This document shows, piece by piece, positions 21,421-62,105 of a DNA stretch of 64,000 nucleotides (position 1 is the stretch's first letter; the number at the start of each line of letters is the position of its first letter). The stretch lies in IMG/VR virus record IMGVR_UViG_3300021092_000026, positions 10,852-74,851 of that record; one strand, written 5' to 3'. This stretch comes from a virus. Below the pieces are notes generated by a model. That model was not told the origin of the DNA. It worked only from the letters and a program-made list of their open reading frames with translations, and made no database searches. The position numbers and the translations under genes were made by a program.

Positions 21421-21918
21421 TTACCTTTTCTTTTTATTATTCATTGCCTGCATTAAAGCTGAATAATCTTTTGTAAGTGCATCCACTACTGCAGCACCTG
21501 CTTCAGTTTGGGCTAATGTATTCATTGATACCGCTCTACCTTCCGAATCTTGCACAACCGATTCTTCCATAGAACCCATTTTTTTCATAGAACCAAATGA
21601 TTGTGCCATATCAGATGTAAATGACCTTCCACCACCTATATCCCTCCACTCACCACTTTGGAATGTTTCATTCAATATTGATGATATTGGTGAGTTGTTA
21701 TTAAATAACTTTTTTTGTGTTTGTGGTTTTTTTGTTTCAAACAAATGGTCTACATCTAATGGGTCTTTTTCCACCAATGGGGTGGTTTGTCTTATTGGTT
21801 GTTGTTTCAATTCTTTTATAATAGATTGTTTTAAAATCTTTTTTTCTTCAGCGAATCTTTTCTTAACCTCGCTTTCAACCAATATTTTAATAGCTTGAAT
21901 TAGTTTTTTTGTATCCAT
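21421..21918 (-). CDS. Hypothetical protein
   Basis: Intact ORF with the ATATTTAT motif immediately upstream. Confidence 0.7.
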   Translation of the reverse strand: MDTKKLIQAIKILVESEVKKRFAEEKKILKQSIIKELKQQPIRQTTPLVEKDPLDVDHLFETKKPQTQKKLFNNNSPISSILNETFQSGEWRDIGGGRSFTSDMAQSFGSMKKMGSMEESVVQDSEGRAVSMNTLAQTEAGAAVVDALTKDYSALMQAMNNKKKR

Positions 21919-21945: not shown

Positions 21946-22890
21946 TTAACCAATACCTTTTTTAAGCTTCAATAGTATATTAGCAAGTTGTGGGTGTGGT
22001 AAGGTTGTTCCTCCTGTTGCCGTTGGAAATCCACCCCTTGCTAATGTTTCTATAGCAGATATAATTAAATTAATTGTAGTTGTATATTTCAATGTAGATA
22101 TAGCTACATCCTTTTTAGATGATAGTATAATATTATCAGATTTACTATTAAATATTAACCTATCAGAATTAATAATAACTTGTGGGTTTTTATATTCAGA
22201 TGTATTTTTTACTACAGATTTACTCGCTAATTTAGTTGCTACCTTTTGTTTTGTAGTCATCCATATAGATGAATCATCTTTGTTTATATTCTCAACAACA
22301 AATTTATCGTACCCCTTTTTATTAGTATCGTTTTGAGTATTTCTTATAATTGTAATTGGTGCACCAGAAACAGACGAATTCCATGATGGTGATCTTTGAG
22401 CCTCACTGTTTTTTGGCGTATAACCAAATCTTATTGATTGTCCAAACCTACCTTCAAATATGGTATCACCAATATAAGGTTGTAATTGCGATAAATTATT
22501 TACTTCTGAAAATCCTTTACCAAAATCTTTTGTATCATCATTAACACCGGATGTGTTTGATATTGGTTCTTCGTATGAGCTGATGTCAAATAATACTACC
22601 CCATTTTTAATCACTTTTGGTAAGGGATTGTTATTTAACGACCTTTGTAAAAAGGTGGGTGATATATAGTAAAATGAAAAACCACCCGCAAAAGGGTTAG
22701 ATCTAGAACTTAAAGCACTAATTAAATAAACCTGTTCACCTATAGTGGGTATTGATTTAATATAAGGGTTTAGTGGATAAGCAAATTCAGATGAAGTTGT
22801 ACTATCATCACGTTTAACTAAAACGCTTATTTTATAAATATCATCTGGATTACCATCCTTTAAAAATACTTCAACTACTTCGCCAAGCAT
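21946..22890 (-). CDS. Putative baseplate hub/spike (gp5/gpV-like) protein
   Basis: N-terminal OB-like AYPL..P.IGEQV; C-terminal beta repeats VIINSDRLIFNSK; baseplate context. Confidence 0.5.
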   Translation of the reverse strand: MLGEVVEVFLKDGNPDDIYKISVLVKRDDSTTSSEFAYPLNPYIKSIPTIGEQVYLISALSSRSNPFAGGFSFYYISPTFLQRSLNNNPLPKVIKNGVVLFDISSYEEPISNTSGVNDDTKDFGKGFSEVNNLSQLQPYIGDTIFEGRFGQSIRFGYTPKNSEAQRSPSWNSSVSGAPITIIRNTQNDTNKKGYDKFVVENINKDDSSIWMTTKQKVATKLASKSVVKNTSEYKNPQVIINSDRLIFNSKSDNIILSSKKDVAISTLKYTTTINLIISAIETLARGGFPTATGGTTLPHPQLANILLKLKKGIG

Positions 22891-23249
22891 TATTCATCCT
22901 CATCTTTTTTTAGGGATTCTAATTTTTCATCTACATCCCTACTAGCTTCTAACAACTGTTTCTTTTCTTCTTCTGATAGTAGTAACCCATCATCAGAACC
23001 ACCCTTATCCAATAGTTTTTGTGCAATCGCAGCCAACCTTACTAATTGGTCATCATTCTTTACTGATACCTCTAAGTATTCCTTAATCAACGGAACTACT
23101 ACTGATGCATCATTTAGATTTTTAACCAATGGTTCTAATTGAGCAATCAGTAATTTTATCTGTCTATCTTTTTTACGGGAGTTATCATATACATCTTTTA
23201 ATAACGATGAAAATGTCGTCCCTTTAAATATATCATCATCCTTCTTCAT
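22890..23249 (-). CDS. Hypothetical helical protein
   Basis: Intact ORF overlapping its neighbours. Confidence 0.7.
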   Translation of the reverse strand: MKKDDDIFKGTTFSSLLKDVYDNSRKKDRQIKLLIAQLEPLVKNLNDASVVVPLIKEYLEVSVKNDDQLVRLAAIAQKLLDKGGSDDGLLLSEEEKKQLLEASRDVDEKLESLKKDEDE

Positions 23250-25057: not shown

Positions 25058-25681
25058 TTAAATAATTTTATCAATAATTCCTAACTCCAATGCTTCTTCT
25101 GCGGATAAGAATAAATCACTTTGCTGATTTGATTGCCACCAATCTTTTGACTTCTTTGTAAATTCAGCCATCATACTATTACACTCTTCTTCTAACCTAT
25201 CAGCGAATTTGGCATTTGATTTTACATCACTTAATTTACCTGCTGCAAAAGTAGATAATTGGTGAACCATAATCTTTGAATGCTTTGATGCTGCTCTAAC
25301 CCCAGTACCTGCTGCGAGTAAAAGAGCCGCTGCTGACATTGCAATACCCCTACAAATAATATTGAATTTCATATCTTTGTTTCCTCTGATATAATCAATA
25401 ATACCAAGCGTTTCTACAACATCACCTCCGCCTGAATTTAGTAGGATATTAATTGTAGTTGTTTCGGAGTTTACTTTCTTTAACAATCTTACCTTAGCAA
25501 TAAATTCGGGTAGTAATCCCATTTGAATTTCATCGCAAATTACGATAACATTATCGGTTAAATCAATACCATAATCAAACTCCCTAAAAAAGTGTTTGTG
25601 TGGGTCGCTATCATCCCCACTATCATTTTTATAATCAAATTTTACATTTGGGGAGCTGGTGGTATAAAGTTCATCTATCAT
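25058..25681 (-). CDS. clpP: ClpP-like protease subunit
   Basis: NSGGGDV, catalytic Ser in AMSAA, MVHQ, DLFLSAEEALELGIID. Confidence 0.85.
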   Translation of the reverse strand: MIDELYTTSSPNVKFDYKNDSGDDSDPHKHFFREFDYGIDLTDNVIVICDEIQMGLLPEFIAKVRLLKKVNSETTTINILLNSGGGDVVETLGIIDYIRGNKDMKFNIICRGIAMSAAALLLAAGTGVRAASKHSKIMVHQLSTFAAGKLSDVKSNAKFADRLEEECNSMMAEFTKKSKDWWQSNQQSDLFLSAEEALELGIIDKII

Positions 25682-53285: not shown

Positions 53286-53480
53286 CATTAACTTACAAAG
53301 TAAAGATAATACACAAAATCCATATTTCCAAGCCTTTTTCCAAAAAGTTATCCACATTTTTTGTGGAAAAGTGTCTAATTTATTGGACACTTTTTTTATA
53401 TAACCCCCCCCCATAAAGATACAACAGAAAATCCATATTTCCAAGCTTTTTGGATTAAAATTGGATTAAAGTTATCCACA
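53286..53480 (-). promoter_or_regulatory. Two tandem promoter modules with three DnaA boxes and the palindrome
   Basis: TTATCCACA 53348 and 53472, TGTGGAAAA 53362, GTGTCTA-N6-TGGACAC 53371-53390. Confidence 0.75.
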
Positions 53481-53489
53481 CCCCCATTG

Positions 53490-53952
53490 TACTATATAGT
53501 AGTAGTATATAGTAGTAGAAGCCGGAGTGATGTGGTAGCGCTCTATAGTATATACTAATAGTATATAGTAGTAGTAGAAGCGCTGTGTTATATGGTGTAT
53601 ATAGTATATAGTAGTAGTAGTAGTATATAGACACACACACACACACTAAGCGCTGTAGTATATAGTATATAGTAGTAGTATATATAGAGAAAAGCCGGAA
53701 TGAGCCGGAGTGATGTACTAACGCTGTAGTATATAGTAGTAGTATATAGACACACACACACACTAAGCGCTGTAGTATATAGTATATAGTAGTAGCGCTG
53801 AGAAATAAACCAAAAATAATTTACCATTGTTATAACACCCCACAACTATATAATAACATTGCATAGTATATAGTATATAGTAGTAGTAGTATATAGTCAG
53901 ACAGAGACCGGGTGCTTCTCTATATACTATATAGTAGTAGTATATAGTAGTA
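53490..53952. repeat. Low-complexity repeat array: (TAG)n/TATATAG units, (AC)8 and (AC)7 tracts, AAGCGCTG and GCCGGA spacers
   Basis: A ~60-bp block is duplicated at about 53617 and 53736; GCCGGAGTGATGT at 53521 and 53704. Confidence 0.9.
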
Positions 53953-54450
53953 ACAGCAGCGTCACACCTTACATTGTTTGAGTTGTGTTAGACATGATGT
54001 GGGAAATGTTAATCCTATCACACCAAAATAATGTGTTGGGAGCGATGAAGCTGATGTTATGGGAACACCAAGGGGAGTTTTTTTGTTGTTACAATTTTTT
54101 CCCCAATATTTATGGAAGCTCTATTTTCCCAATTTTGATACAGCTTTCTCACTCTGCTTTTTCCTGCCCTTTGCCATGTCATTATTGGGTGTTATACCCT
54201 ATTCCCTCCATCCATTTGGAGTACCCCTATCCTGCCCCGCTCTATTCCCATTTTTGACACCCCTTTTTTCTATGGGTTCTTTTAATGTTTTTACCCTACC
54301 ATATAATATAAAGTGGGGGAAAGTGGGGGATTGTGGGAAATTTGTTCATTTTTCAAGCAAGCTTTCTCTCTCTCTCTTTGTTTGGTTTGGTTTGGTTGTT
54401 GTTGCTTGTGTGGGTTAGTGGGGGATGTGTGTTCTTATATAGTTCTTTTT

Positions 54451-54510
54451 ATATACTACTATTATTATTACTACTACTACTTGTAATACTACTATTACTA
54501 TATACTATTA
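54451..54510. repeat. (CTA/TTA)n and CTATATACTA repeat, in reverse orientation to the 53.5-53.9 kb array
   Basis: ATATACTACTATTATTATTACTACTACTAC..CTATATACTA. Confidence 0.7.
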
Positions 54511-54546
54511 TTTTTTTTGTGTTTATTTCCCACTCACTCACTGCGT

Positions 54547-54999
54547 TCATTCGTTCGGTCTGGCGCATAAAAAAACCCCGTAGGTTCGGGGTTCTCTTTT
54601 TTTCGTAATTACTTTGAATTGTATAATAGTTTTTAGTATTTTGAATAAAGATATATCAATTAACTTATTCTCTAACTTTCTAAATTTATCCAACTTATCC
54701 CTTTTACCAACATAAGCATCACCTTCAGTTTCTAATTTTATTTGATGAGTCAATTCATGAATAATTGCGGTTTCTGGGTCATGTAACCTATTAACATCAA
54801 ATGTTATATACAACCCCTTCATCGTTTTAGTATTGTAAGTGGTCGCTGCTCCAGCACCACCAACCCTGCCAAACTTTATGGGTAGAGGTTTAACACCCTC
54901 AGACTTACATAACGCTGTATAATAAGCCTTTATGTTTTCTTGCCCTATTATATCCTCAACAGCCTCCTTAATCATTTGTCTTAATTGGGATAGTTTCAT
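54547..54999 (-). CDS. Leader-family protein with an HExxH (SprT-like) metallopeptidase motif; 3' end doubtful
   Basis: MKLSQLRQMIKEAV; IIHELTHQ; the ORF runs through the terminator. Confidence 0.65.
   Translation of the reverse strand: MKLSQLRQMIKEAVEDIIGQENIKAYYTALCKSEGVKPLPIKFGRVGGAGAATTYNTKTMKGLYITFDVNRLHDPETAIIHELTHQIKLETEGDAYVGKRDKLDKFRKLENKLIDISLFKILKTIIQFKVITKKREPRTYGVFLCARPNE
54569..54593 (-). terminator. Rho-independent terminator ending the leader-gene array
   Basis: Minus strand AACCCCG-AACCTA-CGGGGTT-TTTTT. Confidence 0.8.
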
Positions 55000-55020
55000 T
55001 GTTGATATTTCGTTATTTTA

Positions 55021-55380
55021 TTATTTTTTAAGTTTTTGTATTTGGTACTGCTTTGACTTTGGCCCTTCTCCCAATGAGAAGATTTTGTAAGAATAACCAT
55101 CATCACCCACAAAGGTAAAATTCATCGTATTATTGGGAAAGAATTCTTTCACTGCATTTAAGTTTGGTTTTACACCAATCCACGATTTAATTCGGTCACC
55201 CCATTTGGTTATGAACTTTTCACGAGTCAACAAAGCATCTCCATCTCCTTTACCATGCGGAAAAGATTTGGAAACATATCCTTCTGCTTTTGGGTTATTC
55301 GAAGGTTTCCATTTAACTCCTTCATTTAAGACCCTTTTGACTTCCTCTCTGATTATCTGTCTTAATTCTGATATTTTCAT
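55021..55380 (-). CDS. Leader-family protein, unknown cargo
   Basis: MKISELRQIIREEVKRVLNE/G. Confidence 0.8.
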   Translation of the reverse strand: MKISELRQIIREEVKRVLNEGVKWKPSNNPKAEGYVSKSFPHGKGDGDALLTREKFITKWGDRIKSWIGVKPNLNAVKEFFPNNTMNFTFVGDDGYSYKIFSLGEGPKSKQYQIQKLKK

Positions 55381-55406
55381 TGTTTGTTTCCCAGTTTAAG
55401 TTGATT

Positions 55407-56360
55407 TTATTTTGCAGATGCGATTGGAGCCGGCCCACCAGCAGCCCCCGTATCAGCTTTTTTAGCTCTGATACCCATTTTCTCTGCAAATGAATTTGAA
55501 CGTTTTACCAAAGGTTCTATAGGCTCATCTATCACTCTAACATTCATTGGTATTTGTTTATTAGCATTTGCCGCATTATGTGCAACAATTGCTGCCCATC
55601 GGTGGTGTCCATCCAACACATATCCATCATTGGAAACATATATAGGTGCGGTAATAGCTTCATATGCCGGGTGATTCGGGTCATCCAACACCTTACTCAT
55701 TCCGGCAACTTTAACCCCAACAAGCTCACTTTGTGTTGCTTTTAAACGATCAGGTGAAACGGGGGTTGGTTCTGATACACTAACATTCTCTTTTTGTAGC
55801 ATTTCTTTGAAAAGTGCTTCAGTATCCACTTCCCCATTTTTATCTTTTGGAAGCTTATCAGCAGGTGAACCTGGTTCGGGCGTTCCTTTGAATTGCGGCA
55901 TATCCTCTCTAGGAATACCTTTATTACCACTACAATAAAGATTTGTTCCTGGTACTGTTACCTTACATAAATTGTAATTAGGTGCTTTCTCCCCCTTTGC
56001 TTTGGCTTCTGCTCCCGCTTTAGCCAATTCATCAATTTTCATTGATATTTTTTGTCTTTCTATTGGGTCTACCGCTGATAGTGGTTTTCTATCAAACTTT
56101 GCATTTGGCATTAAATCTTTTAATTTGGGTACACTTACCCCCGGTTCACTGGATTTAGTATCCGTTTCTTTTGTATTCTTATTTTTTGGACCCATCGATG
56201 CAACTGCTGCTTTATAAGCAGGATGTGATTTATCATACCCCAATGCACTGGTTACTTTAATAGTTCTACCTGTTTTGGGGTTTACTACCGTTTCACCAGC
56301 TTCTTTTATTACCCTGCGAACTTGCTCTCTAATTAGTTGTCTTAATTGGGATAGTTTCAT
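55407..56360 (-). CDS. Leader-family protein: NPxTGR module plus ParB/Srx-like domain
   Basis: MKLSQLRQLIREQVRRVIKE; LKATQSE..IYVSNDGYVLDGHHRWAA. Confidence 0.8.
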   Translation of the reverse strand: MKLSQLRQLIREQVRRVIKEAGETVVNPKTGRTIKVTSALGYDKSHPAYKAAVASMGPKNKNTKETDTKSSEPGVSVPKLKDLMPNAKFDRKPLSAVDPIERQKISMKIDELAKAGAEAKAKGEKAPNYNLCKVTVPGTNLYCSGNKGIPREDMPQFKGTPEPGSPADKLPKDKNGEVDTEALFKEMLQKENVSVSEPTPVSPDRLKATQSELVGVKVAGMSKVLDDPNHPAYEAITAPIYVSNDGYVLDGHHRWAAIVAHNAANANKQIPMNVRVIDEPIEPLVKRSNSFAEKMGIRAKKADTGAAGGPAPIASAK

Positions 56361-56386
56361 CGTTTGTTTCCTTTTAATATTTATGT

Positions 56387-57136
56387 TTATGTAAGAGCAT
56401 CCTTCGCAATTTTATATTCATCATATTTTAAATTATCATATAAGAACTGTATAAAATCTGGTATTTTTAGATTTAATTTTTTATATTGATCAGTAAAATA
56501 TATAGTAAGTTCCGTAATTATAGGTGCAAGTCGTTCTTGTTCAAAATCAATAGATGAATAAAATTTTCCTGGCTCATCATATTTGCGACTATCTGGTTCT
56601 AGATATTTCATATATCCAGTATCATAACCACTTACTAAAGGATTGTTGTTCACAACATTAGTTTTCAATTTACGATAATATACATCTCTTGCCTCCATCG
56701 CGTTATTGGCCATAGGAATCCCAGCATCCTTCGGAGCGTAATACCAAATATCTCTAATTTTATTTTGATATTTTTCAGTGTCAAAATTTTTTATGGAGGT
56801 TATGTTAATTTTTATACCATTTTCACCACCATTTTTTACAATTTCTAGTTTTGCACCTGGCAGTCTTTTCTTAACTTGAATCTGAACATTCTTAATATCA
56901 TTAGTAGCTGCATTAGCAATAACCAAATCATATTTAGATTTTAATGAACGAAGGGCTTCTTTAAATGGTTCTGTTTGTCTTTCATATTGAACCATTAAAC
57001 TTTTTGATAAATCGGCAAGTTTTTTTCCGGTGGCTATAGTTTCTTTTTGTATAATACTCAAATCGGCTGCGGATGATTCATTTAAGACCCTCTTCGTTTC
57101 CTCTCTGATTAATTTTTTTAATTCCGATACTTTCAT
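56387..57136 (-). CDS. Leader-family protein, unknown cargo
   Basis: MKVSELKKLIREETKRVLNE/S. Confidence 0.8.
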   Translation of the reverse strand: MKVSELKKLIREETKRVLNESSAADLSIIQKETIATGKKLADLSKSLMVQYERQTEPFKEALRSLKSKYDLVIANAATNDIKNVQIQVKKRLPGAKLEIVKNGGENGIKINITSIKNFDTEKYQNKIRDIWYYAPKDAGIPMANNAMEARDVYYRKLKTNVVNNNPLVSGYDTGYMKYLEPDSRKYDEPGKFYSSIDFEQERLAPIITELTIYFTDQYKKLNLKIPDFIQFLYDNLKYDEYKIAKDALT

Positions 57137-57171
57137 GGCTTGTTTCCTATTTGGTTTAAACCATTTTATAA

Positions 57172-57819
57172 TTAATTATTGTAATCTTTAGTAAGTTTAG
57201 CAGCATAAGCCATAGCTTCTTGTGGAGTTTTAAATGTTTTGGAAGTTTTATCAAATATTGAATAATCATCAATATCCTCAGCTTGTACAGAAAATTCACC
57301 TTTTTCATCAATACCCATTGTAATTGTTCTATACTCATTGTTTGGTAAATTATATATTATACCACCTGTATCACTATTTATATCCGCTACCGAGTCGCCA
57401 CCAGTGACCTTATCCAATATACGTTTCATATCATTTGCTGCCGATTGTGGAAACTTTCTAACCTCATTACCGTATCTATCTTTACTTACTTCTGGTTTCC
57501 ATGCTTGGGGGTTCACATCAACCGATGGTAATGATTGAGATGATTTGGTATTTGCTCCCTGAGATTTTGGTTGAGATGATGATTTGGTATCTGCTCCCTG
57601 AGATTTTATTGCGGCTTGATATGCTGGGTGATCATGGGAGTAAGATAATGCGCTTGATACTTTAATTACCCTACCAGTCTTAGGATTGGTTATAGTTTGA
57701 TTATCTTCACTCAATATCCATCCTTTATTTATCAACTCTTTTAAACGAATGGGTATTTTTGGTTGTATGAGTTTTTGAACTTCCTCTCTAATAATTTGTC
57801 TTAATTGGGATAGTTTCAT
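57172..57819 (-). CDS. Leader-family protein with NPxTGR module, unknown cargo
   Basis: MKLSQLRQIIREEV..ITNPKTGRVIKVSSALSYSHDHPAYQAA; alternative start at 57831. Confidence 0.8.
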   Translation of the reverse strand: MKLSQLRQIIREEVQKLIQPKIPIRLKELINKGWILSEDNQTITNPKTGRVIKVSSALSYSHDHPAYQAAIKSQGADTKSSSQPKSQGANTKSSQSLPSVDVNPQAWKPEVSKDRYGNEVRKFPQSAANDMKRILDKVTGGDSVADINSDTGGIIYNLPNNEYRTITMGIDEKGEFSVQAEDIDDYSIFDKTSKTFKTPQEAMAYAAKLTKDYNN

Positions 57820-57897
57820 TGTTTGTTTCATTTTTTGTTTCCTTTTTAGTTTTATATAAATATAGTTCTTTAAGTTAATACATCCTCAAATGGATAA

Positions 57898-58197
57898 TTA
57901 TCCAAAAAGCCTCTTTTCCTTACACCACTTTTTCCATTCTGGCGTTTTAAATAATTTTTCTGTTAGTTTATCCCACTCATTGTTAATTTTGTATATAGTG
58001 GGTTTTGACCATAGTTGCTCTATACTTCTGGAATTGTATAACATTTTACGAGCACGATTTTCAATATGGTATAACCTCTCCACATCCTTTATGAACTTAG
58101 GTGAGTAATTAGCCCTATCATCATCGGATATAGTAACTTCGTTTATTACCCGTCTAACCTCTTCTCTGATAATATATCTTAGTTCGGATAGTTTCAT
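57898..58197 (-). CDS. Leader-family protein, unknown cargo
   Basis: MKLSELRYIIREEVRRVINE/V. Confidence 0.8.
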   Translation of the reverse strand: MKLSELRYIIREEVRRVINEVTISDDDRANYSPKFIKDVERLYHIENRARKMLYNSRSIEQLWSKPTIYKINNEWDKLTEKLFKTPEWKKWCKEKRLFG

Positions 58198-58221
58198 TGT
58201 TTGTTTCCATTTTTATTTATA

Positions 58222-59043
58222 TTAATCACGCCCCACACCATTATCAGTTACAAACACCAATCCGTTTTTCGCAAATTCACTACGACTGGTTGGTATTTCT
58301 ATATCATTTCCTTTATTATCTTTTACAGTAGAACCACCCGGATAAGCAGTAATTAAACTGAATAATGGTTTTCCATTTGCATCTTTACCGATTGGAGCTG
58401 CAATAACGGTCATTTTATTTGTTGAATCCCGTGTACCAGCCACAACCTTGACCGATTCATCAGGATTTTTGGGATTTCTCATATTATAATTTTTTGCATT
58501 TTTTACCATATCCGGCTTATATGATACACCCATCCCACCAACGGGTTTTGGTGCTTCAATTTCAAATCTATATGTACCATTGTCTTGAATAATCGGCTCT
58601 TTATCCATTGCCTGTGTAATTAAATTATCCACCTCGTTATCAGATATAGTAAAAGTACTACCAGGTATTGATGTATCTTTATGCCTCCCCGCTATATGGG
58701 TAGCACTATCGGATGAACGATATAATGTATTATTTTTACCAATTACTACATCTTCAGGTTTAACTTTTGTACCTTTTAAAAATTTATTATTATCAATAGT
58801 ATTCTGAACAACATCAACTTCTTTTTTAGTTGGTAATTTATTTGCTTGAGGTGTATTAGTTTTATTTTTTGGACCCATTGATGCAACTGCTGCCTTATAG
58901 GCAGGGTGCGATTTATCATATCCTAGCGCACTAGTTACTTTAATAGTTCTACCTGTTTGGGGGTTTACCACCGTTTCGCCGGCTTCTTTTATTACCCGTC
59001 TAACCTCTTCCCTAATTAGTTGTCTTAATTCATGTAATTTCAT
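58222..59043 (-). CDS. Leader-family protein: NPxTGR module plus putative RNase-toxin-like domain
   Basis: MKLHELRQLIREEVRRVIKE; THIAGRH..STF..LITAYPG. Confidence 0.7.
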   Translation of the reverse strand: MKLHELRQLIREEVRRVIKEAGETVVNPQTGRTIKVTSALGYDKSHPAYKAAVASMGPKNKTNTPQANKLPTKKEVDVVQNTIDNNKFLKGTKVKPEDVVIGKNNTLYRSSDSATHIAGRHKDTSIPGSTFTISDNEVDNLITQAMDKEPIIQDNGTYRFEIEAPKPVGGMGVSYKPDMVKNAKNYNMRNPKNPDESVKVVAGTRDSTNKMTVIAAPIGKDANGKPLFSLITAYPGGSTVKDNKGNDIEIPTSRSEFAKNGLVFVTDNGVGRD

Positions 59044-59068
59044 TGTTGGTATTTCGTTATTTCTTTTA

Positions 59069-59407
59069 CTATGATTTTTTTATTGAGTTAATATATGTTC
59101 TATAAACTCCGGCAGCAGTTACCTTACCAGCAGCTTTTGCACGTTGTTCCATCGCTATAGCTGCTTGTATTTTATGTGCATGAGGTTTACCCGATTTCTT
59201 TATCTTACTAACACTAGCAGTTGCATCTTTTACTGTAGCAAATTTTAATCCATGTATTGTTCCTTCAGGATTTTCATCAGTATATAAATCGGAGTGCTTG
59301 CTAGAATTTCTATGCTGACCGGGTTTTCGTGCAATTCTATTTTCTGCTTCGTTTATTACCCGTCTAACCTCATCCCTAATTAGTTGTCTTAATTCAGATA
59401 GTTTCAT
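59069..59407 (-). CDS. Leader-family basic protein
   Basis: MKLSELRQLIRDEVRRVINE/A..SDLYTDENP; true start 59407. Confidence 0.8.
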   Translation of the reverse strand: MKLSELRQLIRDEVRRVINEAENRIARKPGQHRNSSKHSDLYTDENPEGTIHGLKFATVKDATASVSKIKKSGKPHAHKIQAAIAMEQRAKAAGKVTAAGVYRTYINSIKKS

Positions 59408-59411
59408 ACAA

Positions 59412-60224
59412 TTATACCTTAACAATTTCTATTTTTATTTTTGGTTCATATCCAGCAGGGAATTTGGTTTTTATACCCCCGAAATGATTAACTTTATCTG
59501 AAAAGTATGTAAACTGAAATATTTTATCGGTTAAATTCATCACCACCTGCGATGATGTAAACATCTTTTCAGTATCCCTCTTCATATTCAACATAGGTTT
59601 TGTTGGGAAAAACTCTTTACGCATCGCTGCCGCAATCTCTCTCCAGTCATTAACCCCATCAACTTCCTTTTCTGCTGTTACTTTGCGTATTTTTGATGAT
59701 AGGTATTTTTCACCTTCAGTATAACCCGCATCAGTAAATACATGCCCGTGATTTGTTCTTACTATCGGAGATTCAATATTTCTTAATTTCACTTCGGGTT
59801 TATGCTTTGATGTAGTTTCAATACTTACCATATACTTTGGGGATGAAATAAAGGTATGCCCCTTTAAAGCCAATTTACTCTTACCTCTATATGTAAGAGC
59901 AGACCGGATAGCATCAATTAGTTTAGGTTGTTTTATGATATTTCTAATTTTATTCCCATCAGGACCAGGCTTTCCACCCTTTTTAACAATTTTATGCTCA
60001 CTTTCATCCCGACCAACCAAAAGAGCAGAATTTACAACACCTATACCAAACTCATTCATACCCTCACTCCAATCGGTTATCAAATCATACAAATATACCA
60101 CTTCAACACCATCAAATAAAGTATGGATAATCTCTAATTTAGGTTTATATGCTCTATCCCTATTTTTAGCGAGTATAAACTTATCACCAACTTCTTTAGA
60201 AACAATTATACACTCTTTAATCAT
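59412..60224 (-). CDS. Ntn-hydrolase (C45/NRDE-like) with an MIKE prosegment before the nucleophile Cys
   Basis: MIKE-CIIV..LAKNRDR..SEGMNEFGIGVVNS..VRTNH. Confidence 0.75.
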   Translation of the reverse strand: MIKECIIVSKEVGDKFILAKNRDRAYKPKLEIIHTLFDGVEVVYLYDLITDWSEGMNEFGIGVVNSALLVGRDESEHKIVKKGGKPGPDGNKIRNIIKQPKLIDAIRSALTYRGKSKLALKGHTFISSPKYMVSIETTSKHKPEVKLRNIESPIVRTNHGHVFTDAGYTEGEKYLSSKIRKVTAEKEVDGVNDWREIAAAMRKEFFPTKPMLNMKRDTEKMFTSSQVVMNLTDKIFQFTYFSDKVNHFGGIKTKFPAGYEPKIKIEIVKV

Positions 60225-60241
60225 TGGTTATTTCTACTATT

Positions 60242-61225
60242 TTAGTATCTAGTCATTTTGGCCATAAACTTAGCCCACTTATCAGGCTCAAATTGGTCCT
60301 TCATTTTAACTATTAGATTTGCAGCAGGAACTTTTAATGCGTTTCCAGTCATTAAGGATTTAACAACATATGAACTACCCTCTTTTCTATATATAGGTAA
60401 AACATCCCTAACATAAATCGGTTCTTTTTCCAATGAATCCAAATCTTTTACCATGCCGCTCTTTTTTACTAATGCAGCACCAATAAAGGAACTTGCGTTT
60501 TTAACTGCTGCTTCTATCTTATCTAAGTCAGCATCGTACTTACCTTCGTTTATGGATTCAACTGATTCATCAATTGCGTTTGGGTATTTAGTTTTCTTTG
60601 CTAAATCTAAAAGTTTTTTGATATCAGACGGATTGTTTCTATTGTATTTATCAGCGTTCTTTTTATCTTTGAAAATTGCAGATACTTTTTTACCATTATC
60701 ATCAATCATAATGATAATACCCTTTTTACCAAAGTGTCTTTCATCAGATACCGAAATTCCTTCGTTTACTGATTCTTTAACTTCAAATTGTTTTACGGCC
60801 TTTAAAAACGAATTAAAATCTCGTGCCTTTTTGAGCGCATCTGCAATATGAGGTCTATCCATTAAGTTACCATATTTTTTTTCAAAATTAGGATTGTGAC
60901 CGGATGTATCTTTGGCCATAGTATAAAACTCTTTCCAATTTATATTTGCTTCATTTATAGATTCCGCAACAAGCCGGCCGTCTTTATCTGCCACATAATA
61001 AGCAGTCATATTAGATGAACCACCTCTGTCTTTTTCAATCTTTTCTACTGCTTTTTTAGCATCTTTATATGATGAGTATGAATCTTTGAAAATTCCTCTA
61101 CCTAATCCTCTACCTTTATTATATCCTACATAATATAAAATTTCATTTAGATTATGTTTAGTTACTGATTTTGCAATCTTTATAACCTCTTCTCTGATTA
61201 GTTGTTTTAGTTGTTGTGGTTTCAT
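60242..61225 (-). CDS. Leader-family putative polyprotein
   Basis: MKPQQLKQLIREEV; LNE, ESINE, ESVNE and ESVESINE separate domain-sized segments. Confidence 0.75.
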   Translation of the reverse strand: MKPQQLKQLIREEVIKIAKSVTKHNLNEILYYVGYNKGRGLGRGIFKDSYSSYKDAKKAVEKIEKDRGGSSNMTAYYVADKDGRLVAESINEANINWKEFYTMAKDTSGHNPNFEKKYGNLMDRPHIADALKKARDFNSFLKAVKQFEVKESVNEGISVSDERHFGKKGIIIMIDDNGKKVSAIFKDKKNADKYNRNNPSDIKKLLDLAKKTKYPNAIDESVESINEGKYDADLDKIEAAVKNASSFIGAALVKKSGMVKDLDSLEKEPIYVRDVLPIYRKEGSSYVVKSLMTGNALKVPAANLIVKMKDQFEPDKWAKFMAKMTRY

Positions 61226-61239
61226 TGTTTGTTTCTCCG

Positions 61240-61545
61240 TTATTTTATTACTTCTTTATATTTTAATTTAGAACCCTTTACTAACTTTATAAATTTTTCC
61301 CAATCCTTCCCATTAGGATCATTAAGAGATTTTTCAAAAGTAGCGTAACCAGAAGGTGCGTTTACAGCATAATAACCACCCCTAGACCCCCCAACATCTT
61401 CGGATACTGAAAGTTTATTCTTCATCCTTATTTCGTTTGCTTTATCATAATCTTGTTTGTGTATATAAAGCGCCTTAACAACCCCTTCTTTAAGTACCTT
61501 TCTAACTTCTTCTCTGATTAGTTGTTTTAGTTGTTCTAATTTCAT
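61240..61545 (-). CDS. Leader-family protein, unknown cargo
   Basis: MKLEQLKQLIREEVRKVLKE/G. Confidence 0.8.
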   Translation of the reverse strand: MKLEQLKQLIREEVRKVLKEGVVKALYIHKQDYDKANEIRMKNKLSVSEDVGGSRGGYYAVNAPSGYATFEKSLNDPNGKDWEKFIKLVKGSKLKYKEVIK

Positions 61546-62081
61546 TTTATCTCCGATATATAATTACTTAATTGCTTTATAGTATTACCTACATTTGCGT
61601 TTTTGTGTAATATTCCAATACCCCCTGCGGCCTCCCACTTTGTTATGAAATCTTTTCTATCATCAATCAATATAGATGTGGGTGTAGCCCAATTTTGTTT
61701 TTGATAGTTGATTATTGTAGGTGGGTTTCCTAAGTATTTTTTTATCCATATCACCTTACCCTTTTTAGATTCGGATATATTGTATGAAGGTGCGGATAGT
61801 ATAATTGGGTCAAATCTCTTAATCTTTTTCCATAGTAGTAAACCATTTTTTAATGGTGGTAATCCGGCCCAATACTGATACTCCTTCATACCCTTTTGTT
61901 CAACCATTTTGTTGAAATCATCCCAAAATTGTTTTCTTTCTTCGGGAGTTGTGTATATTTGCCCAGTTGGTTTTCCCATAAACTTTTCATACCCAGTTAC
62001 AAAATCAACCAACACACCATCCATATCGCAATATATTTGGTATTGTTGGGATTCTTTTAATAATTGGGCTAATTTAATCAT
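61542..62081 (-). CDS. HAD-family 5'(3')-deoxyribonucleotidase-like protein with a short leader
   Basis: MIKLAQLLKE; DMDGVLVDF, ILSAP, ILIDDR, WEAAGGIGI. Confidence 0.85.
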   Translation of the reverse strand: MIKLAQLLKESQQYQIYCDMDGVLVDFVTGYEKFMGKPTGQIYTTPEERKQFWDDFNKMVEQKGMKEYQYWAGLPPLKNGLLLWKKIKRFDPIILSAPSYNISESKKGKVIWIKKYLGNPPTIINYQKQNWATPTSILIDDRKDFITKWEAAGGIGILHKNANVGNTIKQLSNYISEIK

Positions 62082-62105
62082 ACATATAAATATGATTTTT
62101 TTATC

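What the first reader, a model, noticed from the sequence alone, without database searches (positions are those of the whole stretch)
54547..62081. Array of about 11 genes sharing a capsid-targeting-like leader on unrelated cargo domains: candidate virion-delivered effector system
Seen: ten genes of this cluster begin MK[LIVP]xxL[RK]x[LIM]I[RK][ED]x[VT], usually continuing [RK]RV[IL][NK]E, and an eleventh starts MIKLAQLLKE. After the leader they diverge completely: HExxH peptidase, ParB/Srx-like DGHHR domain, RNase-toxin-like domain, HAD nucleotidase and several unknown domains. No immunity-like genes are evident between them, and the ATATTTAT motif found before structural genes also occurs at 57856 and 62086. 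Known: T4 internal proteins carry a short capsid-targeting sequence (MKTYQEFIAE), are cut after [IL]xE by the prohead protease and are injected with the DNA; some counter host defence. Inference: this is a modular packaging tag that loads a swappable set of enzymes into the head for delivery at injection.
Basis: partly seen in the sequence, partly recalled or inferred. Interest (0 to 1): 0.9.

Follow-up and report, generated by a model that had tools for sequence, protein, structure and literature searches.

The report
Shared capsid-loading leader on phage proteins
A marine T4-like phage of flavobacteria puts the same 20-residue N-terminal helix, ending in the cut site of its head-maturation protease, on ten neighbouring unrelated genes (and relatives do so on over a thousand protein families), most likely to load swappable cargo into the capsid as T4 does with its internal proteins; neither packaging nor cleavage has been shown.

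Summary
Ten minus-strand genes between 54547 and 61545 start with MK[LIVP]x[EQ]L[RK]x[LIM]I[RK][ED]. An eleventh copy lies on the same contig outside the window. The cargos are unrelated.

The contig is a fragment of a T4-like myophage close to Flavobacterium phage immuto. It carries a gp21-type (Peptidase_S77) prohead protease.

A profile of the leader finds 1145 protein clusters among 1.84 billion representatives, almost all at residue 1. Conservation stops at Glu20. [LIVM]-x-E, the T4 gp21 cut motif, sits at residues 10-12 and 18-20.

- The capsid protein keeps the T4 gp23 cleavage site.
- An Ntn-hydrolase inside the array has a propeptide ending [LIVM]-x-E before its nucleophile Cys in 98 of 98 homologues that have one.
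- Related phages encode leader-bearing proteins between the protease and scaffold genes, one of them homologous to an array cargo.
- The motif found before virion genes also precedes the array.

Two close relatives differ by whole cargo cassettes whose breakpoints fall at the leaders.

Nothing shows packaging or cleavage directly, and the co-fold gave no answer. This scan has noted shorter T4-style leaders on other marine phage DNA. This 20-residue version is a new, much expanded variant of a known kind.

The parts
54547..54999 (-). g1, 150 aa: leader MKLSQLRQMIKEAVEDIIGQ (no E20), cargo with an HELTH (HExxH) motif; pI 9.5
   Evidence: ortholog 86% identical in G001; no family hit
55021..55380 (-). 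g2, 119 aa: leader MKISELRQIIREEVKRVLNE|G, unknown cargo
   Evidence: cargo absent from G001
55407..56360 (-). g3, 317 aa: leader, then the NPxTGR module, then a ParB/Srx-like C-terminal domain (LDGHHR)
   Evidence: phrog_2859 at 2.9e-15; weak ParB-like hit; weak SerK hit; cargo absent from G001
56387..57136 (-). g4, 249 aa: leader MKVSELKKLIREETKRVLNE|S, unknown cargo
   Evidence: 67% identical ortholog in G001
57172..57819 (-). g5, 215 aa counted from the ATG at 57819: leader (no E20), then the NPxTGR module, then an unknown domain
   Evidence: cargo absent from G001
57856..57864 (-). TATATTTAT: putative late-type promoter motif before g5
   Evidence: the same motif lies 6-53 nt before the tube, portal, p276, p496 and baseplate-cluster genes
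57898..58197 (-). g6, 99 aa: leader MKLSELRYIIREEVRRVINE|V, unknown cargo
   Evidence: 80% identical ortholog in G001
58222..59043 (-). g7, 273 aa: leader, then the NPxTGR module, then an orphan C-terminal domain (toxin-like reading unconfirmed)
59069..59407 (-). g8, 112 aa: leader MKLSELRQLIRDEVRRVINE|A, then a KPGQ..KHSDLYTDENP..HAHKIQAA domain
   Evidence: The same domain sits in genes within the virion gene clusters of cyanomyophages: between gp23 and gp3 in P-TIM68, and between terS and terL in S-SM2
59412..60224 (-). g9x, 270 aa: Cys-Ntn hydrolase (choloylglycine hydrolase / penicillin V acylase / C45-like fold), no 20-aa leader, 4-residue propeptide MIKE before the nucleophile Cys5
   Evidence: AF2 pTM 0.79; Foldseek probability 1.00 to CGH/PVA/BSH chains; NCBIfam C45_proenzyme at 5e-5, below cutoff; propeptide statistics
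60242..61225 (-). g10, 327 aa: leader MKPQQLKQLIREEVIKIAKS (no E20), cargo homologous to a head-operon protein of a relative
   Evidence: L247_5017_6612, directly after the protease gene, is 46-64% identical over two stretches
61240..61545 (-). g11, 101 aa: leader MKLEQLKQLIREEVRKVLKE|G, unknown cargo
61542..62081 (-). g12, 179 aa: HAD/NT5C-like nucleotidase with a different 10-residue N-terminus, MIKLAQLLKE|SQ, like head-module protein p496
62086..62093 (-). ATATTTAT, its first base 12 nt before the g12 ATG: putative late-type promoter at the head of the array
54570..54596 (.). GC-rich hairpin with T-runs on both strands: bidirectional intrinsic terminator closing the array (it overlaps the 3' end of g1)

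Best explanation
The 20-residue N-terminal amphipathic helix (consensus MK[LIV]S[EQ][LF][RK]x[LI]IREE[VI]xx[VA][LIV]xE) is a capsid-targeting propeptide of the T4 CTS type. It would dock otherwise unrelated proteins onto the scaffolding core of the assembling prohead. The gp21-family (S77) prohead protease would then cut it off after Glu20, or after Glu12 in the copies that lack Glu20. The mostly basic cargo would stay in the head with the DNA and enter the host at infection. The array at 54.5-62 kb is a late-transcribed battery of such cargo genes. Because all members share 55-92% identical leader DNA, homologous recombination between leaders swaps, inserts or deletes whole cargo cassettes in frame.

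Shown here: the leader and its spread; selection on the protein rather than the DNA; the protease and its conserved capsid cleavage site; the [LIVM]-x-E signatures; leader genes inside head operons; cassette breakpoints at the leaders.

Inferred: binding to the core, cleavage, packaging, ejection, and any anti-host role.
For: 1. The phage is T4-like and has the right protease. Contig C1:189-827 is 94% identical to the G001 protein that scores 5.4e-32 on Peptidase_S77. Portal, TerL, scaffold and a gp23-like capsid gene are present.
2. The T4 gp23 site FLTE|A aligns with QLVTE|A, QIVSE|A and QLISE|A in this lineage. A [LIV]-x-E|small specificity is therefore plausibly retained; the L/I-x-E rule is from PMC9026906.
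3. In the leader, I10-[RK]-[ED]12 occurs in 10 of 10 array copies (Glu12 in 9; g8 has Asp) and [IL]18-x-E20 in 7 of 10. Among the top 141 database hits, [LIVM]-x-E occurs 141/141 times at residues 10-12 and 134/141 times at 18-20. Conservation collapses at residue 21.
4. Selection is on the protein: Ile10 uses ATC/ATT/ATA and Arg11 uses both AGR and CGN codons.
5. A natural reporter lies inside the array. The Ntn hydrolase needs a free N-terminal Cys. Of 120 homologues, 22 start MC. The other 98 carry 55 distinct propeptides of 3-25 residues, all with P1 = Glu and P3 = L/I/V/M.
6. The leader occurs inside head operons. A 335-458-aa family starting MKKSELQEIIREEIMKSLITE|K lies 0.8-1.5 kb downstream of the protease gene in 9 of the 10 loci in which its N-terminus aligns. 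In L247 a leader protein directly after the protease is homologous to array cargo g10. Immuto gp072 (MKKSQIVKAVQEVLEE), a small basic protein, lies between the portal and protease genes.
7. ATATTTAT is strand-biased (25 to 5 and 29 to 6). It lies 6-53 nt before the tube, portal and other virion genes, and also before g12, g5 and the eleventh copy.
8. All 12 array proteins have pI 8-10.2, against 52% with pI above 8 in the background. The scaffold is extremely acidic.
9. Close relatives swap cargo exactly at the leaders. T-even internal-protein sets are likewise diverse, sharing only a conserved CTS (PMC3012670).
Against: There is no virion proteomics and no N-terminal data for any phage of this lineage. 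In related contigs, leader genes lie beside DNA polymerase, ssb, thyA, GroEL and queuosine genes as well as tail and head genes, so location does not single out the head. The most widespread leader family (about 140 aa) sits between the spike and gp25-like baseplate genes, and its ortholog here (21421-21918) has a degenerate leader. Most homologues of the Ntn gene also lie in that baseplate cluster, and C45/PVA enzymes can remove propeptides by themselves. A few leader proteins carry a membrane helix. The wider cargo set is as often acidic as basic. Microcystis phage Mel-JY01, with a 58% identical capsid protein, has no canonical leader. There is no detectable sequence homology to the T4 CTS, only a shared pattern.
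Confidence: 0.58

Rival explanations
1. The helix is a docking or recognition handle for some other common partner, not for the prohead. One candidate is a degradation tag for the phage-encoded ClpP, giving timed removal of accessory proteins. Others are a handle for a chaperone, a host target, or the tail hub and spike (a T6SS-effector-like loading).
For: Leader genes are scattered among replication, metabolism and tail genes. The phage has a ClpP homologue (Pfam E 1.7e-32), and no homologue of it was found in immuto, which has only a few short-form leaders. The 140-aa leader family and the Ntn gene sit in the spike/baseplate cluster in most relatives. Arrays of 2-4 leader genes lie between the tube and hub genes in four contigs.
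Against: It does not explain why conservation ends exactly at a [LIVM]-x-E. It does not explain why the Ntn propeptides always end in that motif. It does not explain why leader proteins sit between the protease and scaffold genes. The ClpP correlation rests on two genomes.
Confidence: 0.2
2. The shared 5' segment exists mainly as a DNA or mRNA module: a patch of homology for cassette shuffling (as PeSL elements are in T4-type phages) and/or an A-rich, unstructured translation start suited to a Shine-Dalgarno-poor host. The peptide itself would have no function.
For: Breakpoints between G000 and G001 fall at the ends of the leaders. Leaders share exact runs of 17-30 nt, and an upstream GGAAACAAACA is conserved. 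Codon 2 is always AAA. The PeSL precedent is PMC2839356.
Against: Amino acids are conserved through synonymous changes, including AGR/CGN switches for Arg11. The peptide is kept across at least 1145 clusters sharing under 50% identity with one another. The amphipathic pattern and the Glu12, Glu13 and Glu20 positions are nearly invariant. Shuffling is better seen as a consequence of the shared leader.
Confidence: 0.07

Closest known systems
Phage T4 internal proteins (IPI, IPII, IPIII, Alt) with the capsid targeting sequence, processed by gp21
   Same: A short N-terminal amphipathic peptide starts MK and ends in L/I-x-E. A gp21-family protease and a gp22-like scaffold are present. The cargos share only the leader. 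Cargo sets differ between close relatives. The array proteins are basic. (PMC9026906, PMC3012670.)
   Different: The leader is 20 residues with two candidate cut sites, not 10, and no sequence homology to MKTYQEFIAE can be shown. There are 10-11 copies per 75 kb and at least 1145 cargo clusters, against 3-4 in T4. The hosts are probably Bacteroidota. Packaging and cleavage are untested here.
Ejection proteins of giant phages (phiKZ, SPN3US) with propeptides removed by a diverged gp21-like protease
   Same: Many different head-internal proteins are cut after Glu in a short motif (PMC9026906).
   Different: As far as read here, those propeptides are long and are not described as one shared portable leader. 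This lineage has a classic S77 protease and one uniform 20-residue tag.
Phage P1 DarB N-terminal capsid-targeting signal
   Same: An N-terminal signal of about 30 residues suffices to load a foreign protein into the capsid for delivery with the DNA (PMC9024508).
   Different: In P1 it has been shown for one protein, and loading depends on other Dar proteins and follows a stepwise order. There is no array of tagged genes.
T4-style 10-residue leaders noted earlier in this scan in other marine T4-like phages (e.g. MIKLKDLLKE, note e1-3862018)
   Same: The logic is the same. g12 (MIKLAQLLKE) and head protein p496 (MKKLLNLLKE) of this lineage carry that kind of short leader.
   Different: The 20-residue MKxSELRxLIREEV..E leader was not in the scan's index. 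Those notes are unverified AI reports.
Encapsulation peptides of bacterial microcompartments (from my own knowledge, not tested)
   Same: An N-terminal amphipathic helix of about 18 residues on unrelated enzymes docks them inside a protein shell.
   Different: There are no shell genes here, BMC peptides are not cleaved, and the resemblance is one of pattern only.
PeSL-mediated modular shuffling in T4-type phages
   Same: Repeated short conserved segments flank accessory genes and mark the breakpoints of insertions and deletions between close relatives (PMC2839356).
   Different: Here the repeat is the first 40-60 nt of the coding sequence, so the exchange is in frame and carries the protein tag along. 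It is not an intergenic promoter plus stem-loop.

Membership tests
T4-type CTS / internal-protein system | The N-terminal peptide ends in the gp21 motif L/I-x-E | tested here: met
   I10-[RK]-[ED]12 in 10 of 10 array copies (Glu12 in 9; g8 has Asp); [IL]18-x-E20 in 7 of 10; 141/141 and 134/141 among database hits
T4-type CTS / internal-protein system | The phage encodes a gp21-family prohead protease and a scaffolding core | tested here: met
   PF03420 at E 5.4e-32 on the G001 protein, 94% identical to contig C1:189-827; an acidic gp22-like scaffold and a gp23-like MCP are in G001
T4-type CTS / internal-protein system | Protease specificity is conserved, judged from the capsid propeptide site | tested here: met
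   T4 FLTE|A aligns with LVTE|A, IVSE|A and LISE|A; this is by alignment only
T4-type CTS / internal-protein system | The leader is sequence-homologous to the T4 CTS (MKTYQEFIAE) | tested here: inconclusive
   Only a shared pattern (MK.., hydrophobic spacing, [FL]-I-x-E); the peptides are too short for a statistical test
T4-type CTS / internal-protein system | The leader is necessary and sufficient for packaging into proheads | not testable with these tools
   The co-fold of leader with scaffold returned no verdict
T4-type CTS / internal-protein system | The proteins are present in virions, are trimmed, and are ejected with the DNA | not testable with these tools
   No proteomics was found for immuto or its relatives
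T4-type CTS / internal-protein system | Cargo genes are diverse and differ between close relatives | tested here: met
   G000 and G001 core proteins are mostly about 90-97% identical, yet the g2, g3, g5 and g7 cargos are replaced or absent
T4-type CTS / internal-protein system | The genes are expressed when proheads assemble (late) | tested here: inconclusive
   The ATATTTAT motif shared with virion genes precedes g12 and g5; there is no expression data
Cys-Ntn hydrolases (CGH/PVA/C45), for g9x | An alpha-beta-beta-alpha Ntn fold with the nucleophile Cys at the mature N-terminus | tested here: met
   AF2 pTM 0.79; Foldseek probability 1.00 to CGH, PVA and BSH; Cys5 is invariant and followed by the first strand and by NRD
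Polyvalent-protein domain LPD3 (PF18798) | A Pfam match above the gathering score | tested here: not met
   15.8-16.3 bits against a cutoff of 27
Polymorphic toxin / CdiA-CT RNase A-like, for g7 | A recognisable toxin domain by sequence or fold | tested here: inconclusive
   No Pfam, PHROG, NCBIfam or PDB hit; the Atlas score of 0.79 is a lead only; the model has pLDDT 37

The most novel reading that the evidence does not exclude
A large lineage of aquatic, probably Bacteroidota-infecting, T4-like phages has turned the T4 capsid-targeting principle into a general plug-in system. One 20-residue leader, which also serves as the in-frame recombination site, would let any of more than a thousand mostly unknown protein families be loaded into the head, trimmed or activated there by the prohead protease (as for the Ntn hydrolase), and injected. 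That would make these leader genes a ready-labelled catalogue of first-minute host-takeover and counter-defence proteins.
Probability: 0.4. Interest if true: 0.8.

Novelty: new variant of a known kind. Interest (0 to 1): 0.62.

Why it matters
If the leader is a packaging tag, a simple sequence profile would label over a thousand dark-matter phage proteins as virion-delivered. That would give a direct list of candidates for counter-defence and host takeover in abundant marine flavobacterial phages. It would also offer a portable tag for loading foreign proteins into such phages. The Ntn-hydrolase propeptides would be a rare sequence-only read-out of a prohead protease's specificity. The leader-to-leader breakpoints show how a protein tag can double as the site for in-frame cassette exchange.

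Tried and rejected
- Co-fold of the leader (44-row alignment) with the G001 scaffold (7 rows): no verdict, ipSAE 0.00. It counts neither for nor against.
- AF2 of g7 without an alignment: pLDDT 37, unusable.
- Relatives of the g7 cargo: none found by word search, in IMG/VR or in the phage records.
- tblastn of the 23-residue leader against the phage records: no match, as the query is too short.
With g6 residues 1-40 it returned only 4 proteins, because the word filter is too strict for a 20-residue motif.
- The LPD3 and polyvalent-protein link: below threshold.
- PDB sequence searches for g3, g7 and g9x: nothing.
- A sigma-70 promoter scan of the array: not above chance.
- TATATTTAT counted on both strands: no more frequent than chance. 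Only its strand bias and its position before genes are informative.
- A basic pI as a general property of the cargo: rejected, because the wider set is bimodal.
- Mel-JY01 as a model isolate: it lacks the canonical leader.

Full report
**What is there.** All genes of the region lie on the minus strand. Ten ORFs start with the same roughly 20 residues. Their start codons are at window 54999, 55380, 56360, 57136, 57819, 58197, 59043, 59407, 61225 and 61545. A degenerate DNA pattern for the first 13 codons hits 7 times against 0.00 expected. A profile of the ten finds exactly these plus one more copy on the same 74.8-kb contig, at C1:9599-9661, about 1.2 kb before the window begins. M1, K2, L6 and I10 are invariant in the ten. 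Seven of them continue to [IL]-x-E at residues 18-20. Beyond residue 20 the proteins are unrelated, except that g3, g5 and g7 share a second module (NPxTGR..HPAY).

Two array genes differ:
- 59412-60224 has no leader.
- 61542-62081 (MIKLAQLLKE) does not match the profile.

Gaps between genes are 14-66 nt, or the genes overlap. A GC-rich hairpin with T-runs on both strands closes the array at about 54570-54596. A non-coding repeat region of about 1.1 kb follows.

**Which phage.** The contig begins inside a T4-like head operon: a protease at C1:189-827, then portal and TerL. Its sister contig G001 (105 kb) has core proteins mostly about 90-97% identical. G001 also carries the gp23-like capsid gene, a very acidic scaffold, sheath and tube. 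The protease is Peptidase_S77, the gp21 family, at E 5.4e-32. The nearest isolates are Flavobacterium phage immuto (160 kb) and Microcystis phage Mel-JY01.

**How widespread the leader is.** The DNA pattern finds more than 116 IMG/VR contigs. A 30-column profile, scored against 1.84 billion representative proteins, finds 1145 clusters at E <= 0.001, almost all matching from residue 1. In 141 top hits, residues 1-20 are strongly conserved and residue 21 onward is not. [LIVM]-x-E occurs 141/141 times at residues 10-12 and 134/141 times at 18-20. These hits were selected by the profile, so the degree of conservation is inflated; the sharp edge at residue 20 is not. Of 128 such proteins, only one has a meaningful Pfam family, DUF5661.

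Conserved residues are encoded by varying codons: ATC/ATT/ATA for Ile10, and AGA, AGG and CGN for Arg11. Selection therefore acts on the peptide.

Wherever the leader-bearing contigs that I inspected have recognisable genes, those genes match the immuto/G001 lineage. Arrays of 2-5 leader genes recur in them. Their positions vary: next to tube and sheath, DNA polymerase and ssb, thyA, GroEL and TerL.

**Tests of the capsid-targeting reading.** In T4 the internal proteins carry a 10-residue CTS. Head proteins are cut by gp21 after L/I-x-E. The T-even internal proteins are diverse and share only the CTS (PMC9026906 and PMC3012670). Against that background:

1. The gp23 cleavage site FLTE|A aligns with LVTE|A, IVSE|A and LISE|A in G001, immuto and Mel-JY01.
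2. The gene without a leader inside the array folds as a Cys-Ntn hydrolase: AF2 pTM 0.79, and Foldseek probability 1.00 to choloylglycine hydrolases and penicillin V acylases. Such enzymes need the nucleophile Cys as their first residue. Among 120 homologues, 22 begin MC. The other 98 carry 55 different propeptides of 3-25 residues. Every one has Glu at P1 and L, I, V or M at P3. This is the gp21 motif read out by an independent constraint. The caveat is that enzymes of this clan can process themselves.
3. Leader-bearing genes occur inside head operons of relatives.
   - A 335-458-aa family (MKKSELQEIIREEIMKSLITE|KFAS and variants) lies 0.8-1.5 kb downstream of the protease gene in 9 of the 10 loci in which its N-terminus aligns.
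   - In L247 the gene directly after the protease starts with a leader and is homologous to array cargo g10.
   - Immuto gp072, a small basic protein between the portal and protease genes, starts MKKSQIVKAVQEVLEE.
4. g12's MIKLAQLLKE|SQ matches the N-terminus of the conserved head-operon protein p496 (MKKLLNLLKE|SQ). A generic regex for 'short amphipathic N-terminus ending [LIVM]xE' picks only the leader genes, g12, p496 and the capsid protein out of 145 and 169 ORFs.
5. ATATTTAT is strand-biased (25 to 5 and 29 to 6). It lies 6-53 nt before the tube, portal, p276, p496 and baseplate-cluster genes. It also lies before g12, g5 and the eleventh copy. It precedes the ligase and primase genes too, so 'late' remains an inference.
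6. All twelve array proteins are basic.
7. The g8 cargo domain sits in genes within the virion gene clusters of cyanomyophages.

**Cassette exchange.** Homology between G000 and G001 runs through each conserved gene, the spacer and the first 40-60 nt (the leader) of the next gene, and then stops. The g7, g5 and g3-g2 cargos are missing or replaced in G001. Leaders share 55-92% nucleotide identity, with exact runs of 17-30 nt. The leader therefore also acts as an in-frame recombination site, comparable to PeSL elements (PMC2839356).

**What speaks against it, or stays open.**
- No virion or N-terminal data exist for this lineage.
- The co-fold gave no verdict.
- The commonest leader family (about 140 aa) and, in most relatives, the Ntn gene lie in the spike/gp25 baseplate cluster.
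- Leader genes are scattered among non-structural genes.
- A few cargos have membrane helices.
- Cargo charge is bimodal overall.
- Mel-JY01 lacks the canonical leader.
- The phage also has a ClpP homologue, which keeps a degradation-tag reading alive.

**Cargo.**
- g12 is an NT5C-like HAD enzyme.
- g3 is probably ParB/Srx-like.
- g1 has only an HExxH motif.
- The toxin-like reading of g7 is unconfirmed.

**Verdict.** The capsid-targeting and propeptide reading is the best explanation (about 0.58), but it rests on comparative evidence only. It is a new, expanded variant of the T4 CTS and internal-protein principle. Earlier notes of this scan describe shorter T4-style leaders in other marine phages, but not this 20-residue leader.

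Noticed in passing
window 59412-60224, with homologues P0157-P0276: This Cys-Ntn hydrolase family has 995 clusters and no Pfam family. Its variable propeptide always ends [LIVM]-x-E before the nucleophile Cys (98 of 98), and 22 of 120 homologues start MC. In 73 of 80 related contigs the gene is directly followed by a homologue of the 119-aa gene at window 22890-23249, with the spike-like gene (window 21946-22890) next in many; there it is not part of a leader array.
   Followed up: yes
window 53400-54540: A non-coding stretch of about 1.1 kb follows the array. It holds CTACTA/TATA-type repeats, GT runs and a TGTGGATAA (DnaA-box-like) site near 53480. It may be an origin or a regulatory region.
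   Followed up: partly
window 25058-25681: A full ClpP homologue (Pfam CLP_protease, E 1.7e-32) is present in addition to the gp21-type prohead protease. No homologue was found in immuto.
   Followed up: partly
L145:11295-11552 (G001, between the protease and scaffold genes): A ribosomal protein S21 gene lies inside the head operon (Pfam E 2.3e-11). Mel-JY01 has one at the same place.
   Followed up: no
window 21421-21918, and L012:7408-7833: A family of about 140 aa with an extended leader (MKLDQLRKIIREEVRAAVKEELQEVMNE|A) lies between the spike-like and gp25-like genes in dozens of contigs, with CTATTTATA directly before its ATG. The ortholog in this window has a degenerate leader (MDTKKLIQAIKILVESEVKK).
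   Followed up: partly
whole contig; for example window 62086, 57856, 21923, 3383: ATATTTAT shows a strong coding-strand bias (25 to 5). Its preferred distances are about 12, 24 and 36 nt before start codons. Copies 12 nt before the ATG would give leaderless or nearly leaderless mRNAs.
   Followed up: partly
P0091, P0028, P0009, P0015 (database proteins): Some proteins carry the leader two to four times, internally as well as at the start (for example ..QLKKLVREEISLALSE..QFKKLMREEISLAISE..). They may be cargo polyproteins or fused cassettes.
   Followed up: no
window 55407-56360, 57172-57819, 58222-59043: A second shared module (GETVVNPxTGRxIKVxSALxY..HPAYxAA) follows the leader in g3, g5 and g7. 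The weak Pfam LPD3 hits on g3 and g7 (E about 0.01) are below cutoff.
   Followed up: partly
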